Assembly: GCF_056746865.1 (NCBI RefSeq)
Contig: NZ_CM163382.1
DNA: 64,000 bases
Direction: 5' to 3' (one strand)
Shown here: piece by piece, positions 3,525 to 19,313 of the stretch
Layout: each line of letters starts with the position of its first letter
Position numbering within the stretch: the first letter of the stretch is position 1
Notes under the pieces: generated by a model
Told to the model about the DNA's origin: nothing
What the model saw: only the letters and a program-made list of their open reading frames with translations
Database searches by the model: none
Position numbers and translations under genes: made by a program

Positions 3525-4943
3525 TCAGACAACTTCCTCACCGTAACGCATAGTGCTGGTACGGTTGCGCCCATCTTTCTTCGAGCGATACAGACACGTA
3601 TCGGCTTCGACCATCAATTTATTAAAATCATCGGTCAGCGTTCGGTACGATGCGCGACCACTACCGACGCCAATACTTACCGTGAGATAAAGCGTTTTTT
3701 GTTGCCAGGTGAACGGTTGCAGTTCAACGCCTTTACGGATTTTTTCCGCCATTAGCAGACCATCGACAGGATTCACCGACGGCACTGCAACAGCAAATTC
3801 TTCGCCGCCCATGCGCGCCACCAGCCCCTTATCACCGACAATCTTCTGAATATGCCGGGCAAACACGCTTAACACTTTATCGCCACATTCATGTCCATAG
3901 TTATCGTTAATGCTTTTGAAATAGTCAATATCAAGCAGCATGACCGTCAGATGTTGTGTCTGTTTCAGCGATGGACTTTTCAGCGCCTCATAAAGACCGG
4001 ACCGTGAGTAAACCTGAGTCAGAAAATCAAAGTCGGCTCGCAGCGCAACTTGCTTCATTAGCGAATTGATCGCTGCCACGCTAAAAGAAACCATAATTGG
4101 GCATATCGCCATCGTAGCAATACCGAGACGTGCGGAGAACATTTGCGGAATGGAGAACGGCGAACCGACCGAGATATCAATCACCGAATTTGCCACCAGT
4201 ACGATTTCCACCGCACCGGTGACAAAGGTCAACAGACATGTTACCTGCGGCGTATAGCGCACGGCACACCAGATTAATGCAGGCAGCGGGAACGCCAGAC
4301 TCCCCGCTCCGCCAATGACTACCGAGGCAATAACCGACACAATAAGCGCGATAGCGGGCATCATCTGTTCTGCTTTAAAGCGCGGCAGCACTCCCGGAAT
4401 AGCCAACGTCAGCATACAAGGCACGATCAACACGCCCGTTGAGAATTGCTCACTGAACCAGTCCGCAAGCAAAGGCCAGAAATCCAGACTATCAATACTG
4501 ACCGAACCAATCGCCCCGACAATAGCGCATAATAATGCGGCAATCAGACAGTAATTAAATAGCCGTAAGGCACTTACTGGCTCATACTTATTTTTCCCCA
4601 GACGCTTATCCCGCGCGACCAGAAAGGCGACGGTAACAATAAACATCATATTGGAGAAATTGATAGCCAGTGAAACCAGCCCCCATTCGGTGGTTATGGC
4701 ATCATAAACCAGCATCGCCACATAACTGATCGCATAGTAATGCAGTCGATTAAGCCAGACATAGCGGGCAAACACCCCCGCCATTACGCCATTCAGCGGC
4801 CAGAAAAGAGAAAGTTCGTGAACCAACCGTAACTCTGCACCAATAAAATAGAACAGCGTGGTTAGCGCAAAAATAGCGATGCTATTACGTAGCAGATGAC
4901 CTTCCTGGAACAAACGGAAAGTTGAAATGGGCTGTACATGCAT
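3525..4943 (-). CDS. dgcF: membrane-anchored diguanylate cyclase
   Basis: 472-aa ORF with N-terminal hydrophobic segments and a C-terminal GGDEF domain (motif RMGGEEFAV); corresponds to yneF. Confidence 0.88.
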   Translation of the reverse strand: MHVQPISTFRLFQEGHLLRNSIAIFALTTLFYFIGAELRLVHELSLFWPLNGVMAGVFARYVWLNRLHYYAISYVAMLVYDAITTEWGLVSLAINFSNMMFIVTVAFLVARDKRLGKNKYEPVSALRLFNYCLIAALLCAIVGAIGSVSIDSLDFWPLLADWFSEQFSTGVLIVPCMLTLAIPGVLPRFKAEQMMPAIALIVSVIASVVIGGAGSLAFPLPALIWCAVRYTPQVTCLLTFVTGAVEIVLVANSVIDISVGSPFSIPQMFSARLGIATMAICPIMVSFSVAAINSLMKQVALRADFDFLTQVYSRSGLYEALKSPSLKQTQHLTVMLLDIDYFKSINDNYGHECGDKVLSVFARHIQKIVGDKGLVARMGGEEFAVAVPSVNPVDGLLMAEKIRKGVELQPFTWQQKTLYLTVSIGVGSGRASYRTLTDDFNKLMVEADTCLYRSKKDGRNRTSTMRYGEEVV

Positions 4944-5081
4944 TAATTATCTGTCCATACAATTGCGGGTGGCAATTATCTCAACGTAATAAGTAAATTC
5001 TTATAAAGGATAGCATGTTCGCTGACAGCGGCGGCAAATAAAGATATCCTGGGAATGCTATTTTATCGTTTTCCGCAATTA

Positions 5082-5441
5082 TCATGGCTGATTCATCTGT
5101 ATAACCAACCAGTGATAGATTACCGCCACGATATAACGTTGTTGTTCCTCGCTTAACGAAACACCCTGCGGAATGTTATGCCACTTAGCCAGACAACCGC
5201 GACAACAGGTTGCAGTGGCGTGCTGAGCGATAAACACCGGATGCCCGCGCATGGGGGTTTGCTTACCGTCGTTAGCCGGTAATGCCGGAGCAAGACGTTT
5301 AGCGACAAAATCCGCCGCATGTTGTTCGATGACTGGCGCGCCTTTCTCCAGACAATACTGACGCTCTTTCACCCCCAAACGAAAGCGAGAGCGAAATTTT
5401 GAACGGAATAAACGCGCGAAGAGTGGATCGAGAGACTGCAT
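5082..5441 (-). CDS. yneG: DUF4186-family protein YneG
   Basis: 119-aa ORF; its start codon overlaps the glsB stop by 1 nt (ATGA), suggesting translational coupling. Confidence 0.85.
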   Translation of the reverse strand: MQSLDPLFARLFRSKFRSRFRLGVKERQYCLEKGAPVIEQHAADFVAKRLAPALPANDGKQTPMRGHPVFIAQHATATCCRGCLAKWHNIPQGVSLSEEQQRYIVAVIYHWLVIQMNQP

Positions 5442-15635: not shown

Positions 15636-15764
15636 TTTAAGTCGAACACAATAAAAATTTAATTCAGCCTTCGTTTAGGTTACCTCTGCTAATATCTTTC
15701 TCATTGAGATGAAAATTAAGGTAAGCGAGGAAACACACCACACCATAAACGGAGGCAAATAATG

Positions 15765-15769
15765 CTGGG
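15765..15769. repeat. IS2 target-site duplication, left copy (CTGGG)
   Basis: 5-bp direct repeat flanking the element. Confidence 0.85.
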
Positions 15770-15860
15770 TAGACTGGCCCCCTGAATCTCCAGACAACCA
15801 ATATCACTTAAATAAGTGATAGTCTTAATACTAGTTTTTAGACTAGTCATTGGAGAGCAG

Positions 15861-16226
15861 ATGATTGATGTCTTAGGACCGGAGAAACGCAGACGGCGTA
15901 CTACACAGGAAAAGATCGCTATTGTTCAGCAGAGTTTTGAACCGGGAATGACGGTCTCCCTTGTTGCCCGGCAACACGGTGTGGCAGCCAGCCAGTTATT
16001 TCTCTGGCGCAAGCAATACCAGGAGGGAAGTCTTACTGCTGTGGCCGCAGGAGAGCAGGTCGTTCCTGCCTCTGAACTTGCTGCTGCCATGAAGCAGATT
16101 AAAGAACTCCAGCGCCTGCTCGGCAAAAAAACGATGGAAAATGAACTCCTTAAAGAAGCCGTTGAATACGGGCGTGCAAAAAAGTGGATAGCGCACGCGC
16201 CCTTATTGCCCGGGGATGGGGAGTAA
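15861..16226 (+). CDS. insC: IS2 transposase OrfA (InsC)
   Basis: Translation [56 protein letters not shown]... with HTH; 121 aa from the internal ATG. Confidence 0.93.
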
Positions 16227-17089
16227 GCTTAGTCAGCCGTTGTCTCCGGGTGTCGCGTGCGCAGTTGCACGTCATTCTCAGACGAACCGATGACTGGAAA
16301 GATGGTCGCCGCAGCCGTCACTCAGATGATACGGATGTGCTTCTCCGTATACACCATGTTATCGGAGAGCTGCCCACGTATGGTTATCGTCGGGTATGGG
16401 CGCTGCTTCGCAGACAGGCCGAACTTGATGGTATGCCTGCGATCAATGCCAAACGTGTTTACCGGATCATGCGCCAGAATGCGCTGTTGCTTGAGCGAAA
16501 AACCGCTGTACCGCCATCGAAACGGGCACATACTGGCAAAGTGGCCGTGAAAGAAAGCAATCAACGATGGTGCTCTGACGGGTTCGAGTTCCGCTGTGAT
16601 AACGGAGAAAAACTGCGAGTCACGTTCGCGCTGGACTGCTGTGACCGTGAGGCACTGCACTGGGCAGTCACTACGGGCGGCTTCGACAGTGAAACAGTAC
16701 AGGACGTAATGCTGGGAGCGGTGGAACGCCGCTTCGGCAACGAGCTTCCGGCGTCTCCAGTAGAGTGGCTGACGGATAATGGTTCATGCTACCGGGCTAA
16801 TGAAACACGGCAGTTTGCCCGGATGTTGGGGCTTGAACCGAAGAACACGGCGGTGCGGAGTCCGGAGAGTAACGGCATAGCAGAGAGCTTCGTGAAAACG
16901 ATAAAGCGTGACTACATCAGTATCATGCCTAAACCAGACGGGTTAACGGCAGCAAAGAACCTTGCAGAGGCGTTCGAGCATTATAACGAATGGCATCCGC
17001 ATAGTGCACTGGGTTATCGCTCGCCACGGGAATATCTACGGCAGCGGGCCAGTAATGGGTTAAGTGATAACAGGTGTCTGGAAATATAG
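16184..17089 (+). CDS. insD: IS2 transposase OrfB (InsD), DDE catalytic domain; probably expressed as an OrfAB fusion by -1 frameshift
   Basis: 301-aa ORF in the -1 frame relative to insC, overlapping its 3' end; integrase-like core. Confidence 0.93.
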
Positions 17090-17100
17090 GGGCAAATCCA

Positions 17101-17105
17101 CTGGG
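17101..17105. repeat. IS2 target-site duplication, right copy (CTGGG)
   Basis: Identical to 15765-15769. Confidence 0.85.
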
Positions 17106-17220
17106 TAATATGAATGTTTTTATGGCCGTACTGGGAATAATTTTATTTTCTGGTTTTCTGGCCGCGTATTTCAGCCACAAATGGGATGACTAATGAACGG
17201 AGATAATCCCTCACCTAACC

Positions 17221-17259
17221 GGCCCCTTGTTACAGTTGTGTACAAGGGGCCTGATTTTT
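17221..17259 (+). terminator. intrinsic terminator of mgtS
   Basis: Perfect 10-bp stem GGCCCCTTGT / ACAAGGGGCC with an 11-nt loop, followed by TGATTTTT. Confidence 0.75.
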
Positions 17260-17267
17260 ATGACGGC

Positions 17268-17365
17268 AAAAAAAAACCGCCAGTAAACCGGCGGTGAATG
17301 CTTGCATGGATAGATTTGTGTTTTGCTTTTACGCTAACAGGCATTTTCCTGCACTGATAACGGAT
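17268..17365 (-). ncRNA. mgrR: putative PhoP-regulated sRNA MgrR (about 98 nt)
   Basis: Minus-strand hairpin CCGCCGG-UUUA-CUGGCGG followed by U9 (3' end near 17268); candidate -10 TACTGT (plus 17373-17378) puts the 5' end near 17365, giving about 98 nt; PhoP box upstream; location between mgtS and dgcZ. Boundaries are approximate. Confidence 0.5.
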
Positions 17366-17400
17366 CGTTGACACAGTAGCATCAGTTTTCTCAATGAATG

Positions 17401-17418
17401 TTAAACGGAGCTTAAACT
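17401..17418 (-). promoter_or_regulatory. PhoP box direct repeat (GTTTAA-N5-GTTTAA)
   Basis: The minus strand reads GAGTTTAAGCTCCGTTTAAC, matching the (T/G)GTTTA-N5-(T/G)GTTTA consensus; it overlaps the dgcZ stop codon and lies upstream of the putative mgrR. Confidence 0.55.
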
Positions 17419-18302
17419 CGGTTAATCACATTTTGTTCGTCAATAAACATACAGCGATTTCTTCCGGTTTGCTTACCCTCATACATTGCCCGGTCCGCTC
17501 TTCCAATGACCACATCCAGAGGTTCTTCAGGAAATGCGCGACTCACACCTGCAGTCACGGTAATGTTGATATGCCCTTCAGAATGTGTGATGGCATGGTT
17601 ATCGACTAACTGGCAAATTCTGATACCTGCACGACATGCTTCTTCATCATTAGCCGCTTTGACAATAATGATAAATTCTTCGCCACCGTAGCGATAAACC
17701 GTTTCGTAATCGCGCGTCCAACTGGCTAAGTAAGTTGCCAGGGTGCGTAATACTACATCGCCGATTAAATGCCCGTAGGTATCATTAACCAATTTAAATC
17801 GGTCAATATCCAACAACATTAAATAAAGATTCAGAGGCTCAGCGTTGCGTAACTGATGATCAAAGGATTCATCAAGAACCCGACGACCCGGCAATCCCGT
17901 CAAAACATCCATATTGCTACGGATCGTCAGCAAATAAATTTTGTAATCGGTTAATGCCGCAGTAAAAGAAAGCAACCCTTCCTGAAAGGCGTCGAAATGC
18001 GCGTCCTGCCAGTGATTTTCAACAATAGCCAACATTAATTCCCGACCACAGTTATGCATATGTTGATGGGCAGAATCCATTAGCCGAACGTAAGGTAATT
18101 CATCGTTATCGAGTGGTCCCAGATGATCAATCCACCGACCAAACTGGCACAGTCCATAAGAATGGTTATCCGTTATTTCTGGCTTACTGGCATCTCTCGC
18201 GACCACGCTGTGAAACATACTCACCAGCCACTGGTAGTGGGCATCGATAGCCTTATTGAGATTTAACAAGATGGCATCAATTTCCGTTGTCTTCTTGATC
18301 AT
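17412..18302 (-). CDS. dgcZ: zinc-sensing diguanylate cyclase DgcZ
   Basis: Start trimmed to MIKKTTEID (296 aa); C-terminal GGDEF (RYGGEEFII) and N-terminal zinc-binding-like region with His/Cys residues; corresponds to ydeH. Confidence 0.9.
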   Translation of the reverse strand: MIKKTTEIDAILLNLNKAIDAHYQWLVSMFHSVVARDASKPEITDNHSYGLCQFGRWIDHLGPLDNDELPYVRLMDSAHQHMHNCGRELMLAIVENHWQDAHFDAFQEGLLSFTAALTDYKIYLLTIRSNMDVLTGLPGRRVLDESFDHQLRNAEPLNLYLMLLDIDRFKLVNDTYGHLIGDVVLRTLATYLASWTRDYETVYRYGGEEFIIIVKAANDEEACRAGIRICQLVDNHAITHSEGHINITVTAGVSRAFPEEPLDVVIGRADRAMYEGKQTGRNRCMFIDEQNVINRV

Positions 18303-18949: not shown

Positions 18950-19313
18950 ACTGACTCCTTAATTGCGTTTGGTTTGACTTATTAAGTCTGGTTGCTATTT
19001 TTATAATTGACAAATAAGAATACTGCCAATTGTTATAAGGCATTTAAAATCAGGCAACTAGCTGTCAAATATTAAGAGAATTTAACTCACTAAAGTAAGA
19101 AGAAGATTAAAGAGTCTTAAACATATTTCAGAACAATCAGATTTATAAATTTGAAAATTATTATAACGGAAGGGTATACAAAAAAAGTAATTTTGCTGGC
19201 GACTGCGAAACGGCATTCGCATTAGCGGTGAAGTTTGCCCCCACCCAGCTGCTGCAATTACTGCTCTAACCAGGCTGGCCTGGCGATATCTCCAGGCCAG
19301 CCATTGGTGGTGT

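What the first reader, a model, noticed from the sequence alone, without database searches (positions are those of the whole stretch)
15762..17193. IS2 insertion splits the small PhoPQ-regulated gene mgtS after codon 3
A complete 1331-bp IS2 (15770-17100) with a 5-bp CTGGG duplication sits inside mgtS (yneM). The sequence reads ATG-CTG-GG | IS2 | CTGGG-TAATATGAATGTT... Removing the IS and one copy of the duplication restores the intact 31-codon ORF. This separates the native promoter and the first codons from the rest of the gene, so the strain is probably an mgtS null or hypomorph. MgtS stabilises the Mg2+ importer MgtA and affects PitA under low Mg2+, so PhoPQ-dependent Mg2+ homeostasis could be altered. 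That this is a natural IS-mediated inactivation of a small-protein gene is my inference.
Basis: partly seen in the sequence, partly recalled or inferred. Interest (0 to 1): 0.6.

Follow-up and report, generated by a model that had tools for sequence, protein, structure and literature searches.

The report
IS2 insertion knocks out mgtS
A 1.3-kb IS2 element has inserted eight bases into the tiny magnesium-stress gene mgtS of one E. coli strain, almost certainly silencing it and its downstream partner mgtT; this is an ordinary strain-private gene knockout, not a new kind of system.

Summary
A 1331-bp IS2-type element occupies 15770-17100 and is flanked by a 5-bp CTGGG duplication. Removing it restores the 31-codon mgtS ORF, which passes the NCBIfam MgtS equivalog model.

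What I added:
- The element is an IS2 isoform. It is 95.8% identical to K-12 IS2A and 100% identical to a copy on an IncHI2 plasmid, with intact ends, orfA, A6G frameshift site and orfB.
- The insertion is private and recent. The junction is absent from 5,426 complete E. coli genomes and from the metagenome and species-representative collections. The nearest relatives differ by 8 and 15 SNPs over 62.7 kb and have an intact mgtS.
- mgtS is contiguous in 5,411 of 5,426 genomes, so loss is rare.
- No rescue route is predicted. The right end forms no hybrid promoter. The alternative start codons have weak Shine-Dalgarno pairing (-3.1 to -3.7 versus -9.5 kcal/mol).
It is co-transcribed with mgtS, overlaps its stop codon, and should also lose its PhoPQ-driven transcript.
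- The convergent sRNA gene mgrR is intact.

Verdict: a real insertion and a probable mgtS/mgtT null. It is mechanistically ordinary, and the phenotype is likely mild. Interest is low.

The parts
15672..15695 (+). Candidate PhoP-dependent mgtS promoter: a CGTTTA half-site (15672-15677) lies 12 bp upstream of a TAATAT -10 hexamer (15690-15695). It remains attached only to the 8-nt 5' stub of mgtS.
   Evidence: Read from the sequence. This stretch is identical to K-12. PhoPQ dependence of mgtS transcription is taken from the literature. The exact box and transcription start are my inference. The sigma-70 scan finds no -35/-10 pair here, as expected for an activator-dependent promoter.
15751..15755 (+). 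Native mgtS Shine-Dalgarno sequence GGAGG, 6 nt upstream of the ATG.
   Evidence: Anti-SD duplex energy is -9.5 kcal/mol, the strongest of all the starts tested.
15762..15785 (+). Stub ORF left at the native start: ATG CTG GGT AGA CTG GCC CCC TGA, encoding MLGRLAP*. The first 8 nt are mgtS and the rest is IS2 IRL.
   Evidence: Translation.
15765..15769 (.). Left copy of the 5-bp target-site duplication CTGGG.
   Evidence: In the empty sites of M00057 and CE0007a this pentamer occurs once.
15770..17100 (+). Complete IS2-type insertion sequence of 1331 bp. Its transposase genes run in the same direction as mgtS.
   Evidence: 95.8% identical to MG1655 IS2A over the full length with no indels. 100% identical to the copy on IncHI2 plasmid p573-1. 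It is the only IS2 sequence in the window.
15770..15811 (+). IS2 left inverted repeat (IRL, 42 bp). The weak P_IRL promoter and the OrfA operator lie just inside it.
   Evidence: The first 87 nt are identical to K-12 IS2A. The IRL/IRR lengths and P_IRL are from PMC3299598.
15861..16226 (+). orfA / insC, encoding the IS2 repressor TnpA (121 aa).
   Evidence: Protein identical to K-12 InsC. NCBIfam NF006928 scores 276.4 bits against a cut-off of 229.
16178..16184 (+). A6G (AAAAAAG) programmed -1 frameshift site that joins orfA to orfB.
   Evidence: Located. Its role is from PMC3299598.
16184..17089 (+). orfB / insD, the IS2 transposase catalytic part (301 aa).
   Evidence: Open and full length, with 10 substitutions relative to K-12 InsD. 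NCBIfam NF006918 scores 707.8 bits against a cut-off of 597.
17060..17100 (+). IS2 right inverted repeat (IRR, 41 bp). It carries the outward -35 hexamer TGGAAA (17079-17084) that is used in the minicircle promoter Pjunc.
   Evidence: Sequence. Pjunc's absolute need for a 17-bp spacer is from PMC3299598. The IRR carries one difference from K-12 (IS position 1305, A to G), which turns an ATG into the GTG at 17074.
17101..17105 (.). Right copy of the target-site duplication CTGGG.
17106..17193 (+). Promoterless 3' part of mgtS, ORF nucleotides 9-96 including the stop codon. It has no native start codon or Shine-Dalgarno sequence.
17074..17193 (+). Mechanical 39-codon [12 protein letters not shown] fused to MgtS residues 2-31. 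It starts at a GTG inside the IRR.
   Evidence: Listed. SD pairing is only -3.1 kcal/mol. It still scores 76.9 bits on the MgtS model, so an annotation pipeline could call it an intact mgtS.
17193..17297 (+). mgtT, the 34-codon second cistron. Its ATG overlaps the mgtS stop (TAATGA). The sequence is intact, but it now lies downstream of the IS.
   Evidence: ORF. The protein differs from K-12 MgtT by E26K. Annotated as mgtT in relatives. The operon structure is from PMC11429745 and Weaver et al..
17221..17259 (+). GC-rich hairpin (GGCCCCTTGT...ACAAGGGGCC) followed by TGATTTTT. It looks like a terminator for mgtS transcription and lies inside mgtT.
   Evidence: Read from the sequence. The loop is too long for the scanner's rule, so one search did not list it. 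Its function is my inference.
17187..17400 (-). mgrR region, matched by Rfam STnc560. mgrR is a convergent PhoP-dependent sRNA gene with its own terminator at 17276-17295 (- strand). The IS does not touch it.
   Evidence: Rfam RF01407 scores 281 bits, full model. Terminator.

Best explanation
An active-looking IS2 isoform transposed recently into the chromosome of a phylogroup-D-like E. coli. It landed in the pentamer CTGGG at nucleotides 4-8 of mgtS and duplicated it.

The PhoP-activated promoter, the 5' UTR, the strong Shine-Dalgarno sequence and the ATG now drive only a 7-codon stub, MLGRLAP*, which ends 16 nt into the IS. The remaining 88 nt of mgtS sit 1.3 kb downstream with no promoter, no Shine-Dalgarno sequence and no start codon of their own. 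mgtT, which normally shares the mgtS transcript, sits behind them.

The stub ORF stops early, and the next translated ORF, insC, begins 76 nt later. Transcripts entering from the mgtS promoter are therefore expected to be largely ended by Rho inside IS2. Any read-through RNA would be translated poorly at the remaining in-frame starts.

The net effect is a null, or at best a very weak hypomorph, for MgtS, with reduced MgtT. mgrR, dgcZ and ydeE are unaffected. Under low Mg2+ the strain would lack MgtS-mediated stabilisation of MgtA and inhibition of PitA.

What is shown: the anatomy, the exact reconstitution, the privacy and recency of the insertion, and the absence of a hybrid promoter or good alternative ribosome-binding sites. 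What is inferred: Rho polarity in this orientation, the loss of protein, and the phenotype.
For: - Anatomy: the boundaries, the duplication and the restored ORF are exact. The restored ORF passes the MgtS equivalog model at 80.6 bits against a cut-off of 35.
- The IS looks active. It is full length. Its first 87 nt and last 26 nt match K-12 IS2A, and the 41-bp IRR carries one difference from K-12 (IS position 1305, A to G). InsC is identical to K-12, InsD is open, and the A6G site is present. Both proteins score above the IS2-specific NCBIfam cut-offs.
- Recency and privacy. The window is collinear with M00057 (15 SNPs) and CE0007a (8 SNPs) over 62.7 kb, and the IS is the only structural difference. 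None of 5,426 complete genomes carries the junction. There are no exact junction matches in the metagenome or species-representative collections.
- No rescue by promoter. With the IRR -35 TGGAAA, spacers of 16-18 bp give -10 candidates CTGGGT, TGGGTA and GGGTAA, each matching 1 of 6 positions. TAATAT lies at a spacer of 21 bp. Pjunc-type promoters need exactly 17 bp (PMC3299598). The promoter scan finds nothing reading out of the IS.
- No rescue by translation. SD pairing is -3.1 kcal/mol for GTG 17074, -3.7 for ATG 17111 and -3.3 for ATG 17123, against -9.5 for the native start.
- mgtS and mgtT form one PhoQP-dependent operon (PMC11429745).
Against: - No expression data exist for this strain.
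- The orientation of IS2 in the gal reporter is not stated in the paper I could read, so polarity in this orientation is assumed.
[quoted passage not shown] Some transcription can therefore pass or emerge from IS2.
- A 39-codon in-frame ORF from GTG 17074 retains MgtS residues 2-31. It lies within 15 nt of the insD stop, so low-level termination-reinitiation cannot be excluded.
- The rest of the genome (mgtA, phoPQ, pitA, any second mgtS copy) is outside the window.
Confidence: 0.85

Rival explanations
1. Rewiring rather than knockout. The remnant is still expressed, either as the 39-aa IRR::MgtS fusion from GTG 17074 or as a 27-aa product from the Met5 codon at 17111. Expression would come from read-through of IS2 (mgtS promoter or P_IRL) with reinitiation after the insD stop. 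The result would be a low-level MgtS activity whose regulation is altered or follows that of IS2.
For: The fusion ORF is in frame and keeps 30 of the 31 MgtS residues, scoring 76.9 bits on the MgtS model. The insD stop (17087-17089) lies 13 nt after the GTG and 22 nt before ATG 17111. The IS2 genes run in the same direction as mgtS, so read-through RNA would be sense. [quoted passage not shown]
Against: SD pairing at these starts is only -3.1 to -3.7 kcal/mol. No hybrid or outward promoter is predicted. P_IRL is weak and repressed by OrfA, and OrfAB/OrfB translation is rare (PMC3299598). IS2 carries Rho-dependent terminators. The function of an N-terminally altered MgtS is unknown.
Confidence: 0.1
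2. The insertion is an assembly or cultivation artefact. Either an IS2 copy was misplaced by the assembler, or the IS jumped during laboratory passage of the sequenced stock. In both cases the natural strain would have an intact mgtS.
For: The junction is seen in no other genome or metagenome. IS2 transposes readily in laboratory culture (general knowledge).
Against: A misassembly would not produce a perfect 5-bp duplication, precise IS termini, and flanks that rejoin exactly into the empty site. A jump during passage would still be a genuine transposition with the same consequences for that stock.
Confidence: 0.04
3. The loss is adaptive rather than neutral. Disruption of the mgtS-mgtT-mgrR-dgcZ neighbourhood would be recurrently selected, or the first bases of mgtS would be an IS hot spot, and this IS2 insertion would be one instance.
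For: Independent IS events cluster at this locus. In strain 7_12_15B an IS1 abuts mgtS nucleotide 4 and a deletion extends to ydeJ. In EC1 an IS1 sits 34 nt upstream of the ATG and a deletion extends into dcp. In EcPF40 an IS200C lies inside mgtT. Overexpression of MgtS is harmful (PMC11429745).
Against: mgtS is contiguous in 5,411 of 5,426 genomes, and 5,373 of the 5,417 matching records are at least 99% identical. That pattern indicates purifying selection, not repeated loss. The IS1 cases delete several genes, so mgtS need not be the target. Four events make too small a sample to establish a hot spot.
Confidence: 0.1

Closest known systems
IS2 (IS3 family) insertional inactivation with polarity, e.g. 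galEP3 / gal3, an IS2 at the start of the gal operon
   Same: The same element type is inserted near the 5' end of a transcription unit. It uncouples promoter from coding sequence and imposes Rho-dependent polarity on downstream cistrons (PMC3737525). It has the 5-bp duplication, the orfA/orfB pair with the A6G frameshift site, and IRL and IRR.
   Different: The target is a 96-nt small-protein gene, and the break lies 8 nt into the ORF. The element is a 95.8% isoform identical to a plasmid-borne copy. Polarity here is inferred, not measured.
IS2 hybrid-promoter activation (Jaurin and Normark 1983, ampC; acrEF activation)
   Same: The IRR with its outward -35 hexamer faces the downstream gene remnant, the geometry that can create a fusion promoter (PMC9330008).
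   Different: There is no usable -10 at a 16-18 bp spacing, with only 1 of 6 matches at each. Activation is therefore not expected. The downstream sequence also lacks its ribosome-binding site and start codon.
Engineered mgtS (yneM) deletion mutants of E. coli K-12
   Same: The expected molecular phenotype is the same: no MgtS, hence less MgtA stabilisation and no PitA inhibition under PhoPQ-inducing conditions.
   Different: The laboratory deletions were designed to spare mgtT (PMC11429745). This natural allele should also lower mgtT expression, and it leaves an IS2 under a PhoP-activated promoter. The strain background is a wild phylogroup-D-like strain, not K-12.
IS1-mediated deletions of the same locus in E. 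coli EC1 and 7_12_15B
   Same: These are IS-associated losses of mgtS whose breakpoints lie within about 45 bp of the one in this window.
   Different: Those events removed mgtS, mgtT, mgrR, dgcZ and ydeI, and in EC1 part of dcp as well. The IS2 event is a simple insertion that leaves all flanking DNA in place.

Membership tests
IS2 (IS3 family, IS2 group) | Length of about 1331 bp with imperfect terminal inverted repeats (IRL 42 bp, IRR 41 bp) | tested here: met
   The element is 1331 bp. Its first 87 nt and last 26 nt are identical to MG1655 IS2A, and the 41-bp IRR carries one difference from K-12 at IS position 1305. IR lengths are from PMC3299598.
IS2 (IS3 family, IS2 group) | Two overlapping ORFs (orfA, orfB) joined by an A6G -1 frameshift site | tested here: met
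   orfA is at 15861-16226, orfB at 16184-17089 and AAAAAAG at 16178-16184.
IS2 (IS3 family, IS2 group) | Proteins match the IS2-specific family models above the curated cut-offs | tested here: met
   NF006928 (IS2 TnpA) scores 276.4 against a cut-off of 229. NF006918 (IS2 TnpB) scores 707.8 against 597.
IS2 (IS3 family, IS2 group) | 5-bp target-site duplication | tested here: met
   CTGGG at 15765-15769 and 17101-17105. It occurs once in the empty sites of relatives.
IS2 (IS3 family, IS2 group) | Nucleotide identity to reference IS2 high enough to count as an isoform (ISfinder convention of about 95% or more, recalled from memory) | tested here: met
   95.8% identity to MG1655 IS2A (56 of 1331 positions differ), which is borderline. 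InsD is 96.7% identical and InsC 100%. RefSeq labels the identical plasmid copy only 'IS3 family transposase'.
IS2 (IS3 family, IS2 group) | Transposition competence | not testable with these tools
   All sequence parts are intact and the duplication shows a past transposition event. Current activity needs an experiment.
MgtS (NCBIfam NF033842, 31-aa PhoPQ-regulated small membrane protein) | Sequence matches the equivalog model over its full length | tested here: met
   The reconstructed ORF scores 80.6 bits against a cut-off of 35, covering positions 1-31 of 31. It is identical to K-12 MgtS.
MgtS (NCBIfam NF033842, 31-aa PhoPQ-regulated small membrane protein) | Uninterrupted gene with its own start codon and ribosome-binding site in this genome | tested here: not met
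   The ORF is split after nucleotide 8 by 1331 bp of IS plus the 5-bp duplication. It is a disrupted allele, not a functional member.
MgtS (NCBIfam NF033842, 31-aa PhoPQ-regulated small membrane protein) | Conserved genomic context ydeE - mgtS - mgtT - mgrR (convergent) - dgcZ | tested here: met
   Annotation of the collinear loci in strains 042, M00057 and CE0007a. mgrR is matched by Rfam STnc560.
MgtS (NCBIfam NF033842, 31-aa PhoPQ-regulated small membrane protein) | PhoPQ- and low-Mg2+-dependent transcription | not testable with these tools
   The upstream region differs from K-12 by one base, at 15656. Regulation is taken from the literature.
IS-generated hybrid (fusion) promoter | A -10-like hexamer in the flank, 17 bp (16-18 bp) from the outward -35 of the IRR | tested here: not met
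   Each candidate hexamer at spacers of 16, 17 and 18 bp matches TATAAT at 1 of 6 positions. TAATAT lies at a spacer of 21 bp. The 17-bp requirement is from PMC3299598.

The most novel reading that the evidence does not exclude
The insertion does more than destroy mgtS. It places a complete, intact IS2 directly behind one of the strongly PhoP-induced promoters. Low Mg2+, acid or antimicrobial-peptide stress could then drive transcription into the element, making IS2 transposase expression, and hence genome plasticity, stress-inducible in this strain. Alternatively, the in-frame 39-aa IRR::MgtS fusion could supply an MgtS activity that is uncoupled from PhoPQ.
Probability: 0.07. Interest if true: 0.4.

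Novelty: new member of a known kind. Interest (0 to 1): 0.2.

Why it matters
If the inference holds, this strain is a natural double knock-down of mgtS and mgtT in a wild, non-K-12 background. Near-isogenic IS-free comparators are already sequenced (CE0007a at 8 SNPs and M00057 at 15 SNPs across the window). That makes it a convenient test of what MgtS contributes to Mg2+ homeostasis outside the laboratory strain.

There is also a practical annotation point. The 39-codon ORF that starts inside the IS2 right end scores above the MgtS model cut-off, so automatic pipelines may report an intact mgtS where the gene is in fact broken.

Beyond that, this is a routine example of IS-mediated gene inactivation. 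mgtS is otherwise almost universally conserved in E. coli, being contiguous in 5,411 of 5,426 genomes.

Tried and rejected
- Same insertion elsewhere. A 201-bp left-junction query against 5,426 complete E. coli genomes gave no hit covering at least 80% of the query. An exact 38-mer of the junction was absent from metagenome contigs and genome contigs.
- Hybrid promoter at the IRR-flank junction. Rejected, with 1 of 6 matches to the -10 consensus at spacers of 16-18 bp.
- Any sigma-70-like promoter reading out of the IS. None was found.
- Good ribosome-binding sites for the alternative starts GTG 17074, ATG 17111 and ATG 17123. Rejected, at -3.1 to -3.7 kcal/mol.
- Damage to mgrR. Rejected. The Rfam match is full length and the terminator is intact.
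- Other structural differences in the window relative to close relatives. None were found, only 8-15 SNPs.
- Literature reports of IS2 in mgtS or yneM. None are in the searchable library.
- Primary MgtS, MgrR and IS2 left-end papers (PMC5465934, PMC6351178, PMC2841474, PMC321474). These are not held, so the promoter and transcription-start details for mgtS are my inference from the sequence.
- Sequestration of the insC Shine-Dalgarno sequence in read-through RNA. The minimum-free-energy fold pairs IRL UCUCC with the insC GGAG, but the z-score is only -1.65, so I treat it as a hint only.
- A full list of the roughly 15 genomes lacking a contiguous mgtS. The tool output does not allow one, so only three were examined.
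Full report
**Observation**

The window reads ...CGGAGGCAAATA ATG CTG GG | TAGACTGGCCCCCTGAATC ... GGGGCAAATCCA | CTGGG TAATATGAATGTT....
- The inserted block is 15770-17100, exactly 1331 bp.
- The pentamer CTGGG is present on both sides, at 15765-15769 and 17101-17105.
- Joining 15762-15769 to 17106-17193 gives a 31-codon ORF, MLGNMNVFMAVLGIILFSGFLAAYFSHKWDD.
- That ORF is identical to K-12 MgtS and scores 80.6 bits on the NCBIfam MgtS equivalog model, cut-off 35.

The one imprecision is that the break lies after ORF nucleotide 8, inside codon 3, rather than after codon 3.

**What the inserted element is**

Compared with MG1655 IS2A (annotated as a mobile element at NC_000913.3 381260-382590), the element has the same length and no indels. 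It has 56 substitutions, giving 95.8% identity.
- Its first 87 and last 26 nucleotides are identical to IS2A. The 41-bp IRR therefore carries one difference from K-12, at IS position 1305.
- orfA (insC, 15861-16226) encodes a protein identical to K-12 InsC.
- The A6G frameshift site is present at 16178-16184.
- orfB (insD, 16184-17089) is open, with 10 amino-acid substitutions.
- Both proteins exceed the IS2-specific NCBIfam cut-offs, 276.4 against 229 and 707.8 against 597.

A 100% identical copy lies next to repHI2 on plasmid p573-1, from a chicken isolate in China. Copies at 99.9% identity lie on several other large plasmids. The element is therefore an intact IS2 isoform of a type that circulates on plasmids. 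It is the only IS2 sequence in the window.

**Context**

The locus is the canonical ydeE - mgtS - mgtT - mgrR - dgcZ region.
- mgrR is recognised by Rfam STnc560 at 17187-17400 on the minus strand, at 281 bits. It has its own intrinsic terminator at 17276-17295.
- mgrR is convergent with mgtS and, like it, PhoPQ-dependent (bioRxiv 10.1101/2021.06.30.450655). The IS does not touch it.
This 34-codon ORF (17193-17297) has an ATG that overlaps the mgtS stop codon.
- mgtT was found by ribosome profiling (Weaver et al.). It is reported to form a PhoQP-dependent operon with mgtS (PMC11429745).
- In this window mgtT is intact, with E26K relative to K-12. It now lies downstream of the IS.

**How private and how recent the insertion is**

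The window is collinear with E. coli M00057 (human faeces, Australia), with 15 SNPs over 62.7 kb. It is also collinear with CE0007a (bovine faeces, New Zealand), with 8 SNPs. The IS is the only structural difference, and both relatives have an intact mgtS.
- A 201-bp query across the left junction found no genome among 5,426 complete E. coli assemblies with a contiguous match.
- An exact 38-mer of the junction is absent from the metagenome and species-representative genome collections.
- A 229-bp segment from the 5' UTR to the terminator of mgtS is contiguous in 5,411 of 5,426 genomes. It is at least 99% identical in 5,373 of the 5,417 matching records.

mgtS is thus a highly conserved core gene, and its disruption is rare. 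The insertion is a young event restricted to the source lineage.

**Consequences for expression (inference from anatomy)**

The native Shine-Dalgarno sequence (GGAGG, 15751-15755) pairs with the anti-SD at -9.5 kcal/mol. Together with the ATG it now opens a 7-codon stub, MLGRLAP*, which ends at 15785 inside the IRL.

The mgtS remnant has three conceivable in-frame starts:

| Start | Product | SD pairing (kcal/mol) |
|---|---|---|
| GTG 17074, inside the IRR | 39-aa fusion MSGNIGANP + MgtS residues 2-31 | -3.1 |
| ATG 17111 (Met5) | 27-aa truncated MgtS | -3.7 |
| ATG 17123 (Met9) | shorter truncated MgtS | -3.3 |

IS2 can activate neighbouring genes through the outward -35 in its IRR (PMC9330008). 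[quoted passage not shown] In this window the -35 TGGAAA lies at 17079-17084. The hexamers at spacers of 16, 17 and 18 bp are CTGGGT, TGGGTA and GGGTAA, each matching the -10 consensus at 1 of 6 positions. The good-looking TAATAT is at a spacer of 21 bp. The general scan finds no outward promoter.

Sense RNA over the remnant can therefore come only from read-through of the whole IS. An IS2 at the start of the gal operon serves as a standard cassette of Rho-dependent terminators (PMC3737525). In this window, the early stop of the stub ORF leaves 76 nt of untranslated RNA before insC. A fold of a read-through RNA pairs IRL UCUCC with the insC GGAG, but the z-score is only -1.65, so this is a weak hint.

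I conclude that MgtS is absent or nearly so, and that mgtT loses most of its PhoP-driven transcript. One counter-example should be kept in mind: an IS2 in the rho leader reduced Rho only to about 40% (PMC5449661). Some leakage of transcription is therefore possible, but translation of the remnant remains the bottleneck.

**Expected phenotype**

MgtS binds and stabilises the Mg2+ importer MgtA and inhibits PitA (review PMC10710835). Weaver et al. describe cells lacking MgtS as sensitive to low Mg2+. In the systematic study of low-Mg2+-induced small proteins, however, neither the mgtS nor the mgtT deletion had a growth effect (PMC11429745). The likely phenotype is a modest, condition-dependent defect in Mg2+ accumulation.

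**Rivals**

1. Residual or rewired expression from the fusion ORF or from Met5. This is possible at low level but unsupported by promoter or ribosome-binding-site analysis (confidence 0.1).
2. Assembly or passage artefact. This is unlikely given the perfect duplication and exact reconstitution (0.04).
3. Adaptive or hot-spot loss (0.1).
   - For: three other IS-associated events lie nearby. An IS1 abuts mgtS nucleotide 4 in strain 7_12_15B. An IS1 lies 34 nt upstream of the ATG in EC1. Both have adjacent multi-gene deletions. An IS200C lies inside mgtT in EcPF40.
   - Against: the 99.7% conservation argues against recurrent selection for loss.

**Comparison with known systems**

The element meets all testable criteria for IS2. 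The disrupted gene is mgtS by sequence and synteny, but it is no longer an intact member of that family. The mechanism is classical IS insertional inactivation with polarity. It is not an instance of IS2 promoter creation, because that defining feature was tested and not met. I found no report of an IS in mgtS or yneM in the searchable literature.

**Verdict**

It is a new instance of a well-known kind of event and is restricted to one lineage. Interest is low (0.2). Its value lies in providing a natural mgtS/mgtT-deficient wild strain with sequenced IS-free near relatives. It also serves as a warning that the IS-derived 39-codon ORF passes the MgtS HMM cut-off and may be annotated as an intact gene.

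Noticed in passing
window 17193-17297 (+): mgtT, a 34-codon ORF whose ATG overlaps the mgtS stop codon, spans the terminator-like hairpin at 17221-17259. It runs antisense across the mgrR terminator (17276-17295, minus strand). Its allele here carries E26K relative to K-12, caused by a G-to-A change that lengthens an A-run to nine. RefSeq calls this allele 'hypothetical protein' in M00057 and CE0007a, and 'frameshifted' in strain 042.
   Followed up: partly
L008 (E. coli 7_12_15B, NZ_CP074849.1) about 4060-4110; L007 (E. coli EC1, NZ_CP058574.1) about 3700-3770: Two unrelated complete genomes carry IS1 at or next to the mgtS start. In 7_12_15B the junction is ATGC|GGTAATGACTCC, after mgtS nucleotide 4. 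In EC1 the IS1 lies 34 nt upstream of the ATG. Both have adjacent deletions that remove mgtS, mgtT, mgrR, dgcZ and ydeI, and in EC1 part of dcp as well. Together with this IS2, that makes three independent IS breakpoints within about 45 bp.
   Followed up: partly
L012 (E. coli EcPF40, NZ_CP054214.1) about 635-1300: An IS200C element is inserted inside mgtT, after 78 nt of the ORF, between mgtS and mgrR. mgtT is truncated and mgtS is left intact.
   Followed up: no
window 17074-17076 (IS position 1305): The start codon of the outward-reading ORF in the IS2 right end is GTG in this isoform but ATG in K-12 IS2A (A to G at IS position 1305, inside the IRR). In K-12-type IS2, an insertion in the same frame would offer a better start codon for a fusion peptide.
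   Followed up: no
window 15787-15791 with 15851-15856 (+): In a transcript entering IS2 from outside, the predicted fold pairs IRL UCUCC with the insC Shine-Dalgarno GGAG. Transcripts from the internal P_IRL would lack the 5' arm. This would be a shield against read-through-driven transposase translation. The fold is not significantly better than shuffled sequences (z = -1.65).
   Followed up: partly
window about 17402-17420 (-): On the minus strand upstream of mgrR there is a direct repeat, GTTTAA-GCTCC-GTTTAA, that looks like a PhoP box. It lies just beyond the 3' end of dgcZ (17412).
   Followed up: no
window about 19180-19270 (between ydeI and dcp): In the collinear relatives, the position where other strains such as 7_12_15B have a full ydeJ is annotated as an 81-nt remnant of a 2-oxo-tetronate isomerase gene (ydeJ-like, missing its N-terminus). 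This is a lineage-specific deletion scar.
   Followed up: no
L005 (plasmid p573-1, NZ_CP102854.1) 4001-5331: The only 100% identical copy of this IS2 isoform found among complete E. coli records lies next to repHI2 on a 233-kb IncHI2 plasmid. Copies at 99.9% identity are on other large plasmids. This suggests, without proving, a plasmid origin for the chromosomal copy.
   Followed up: partly
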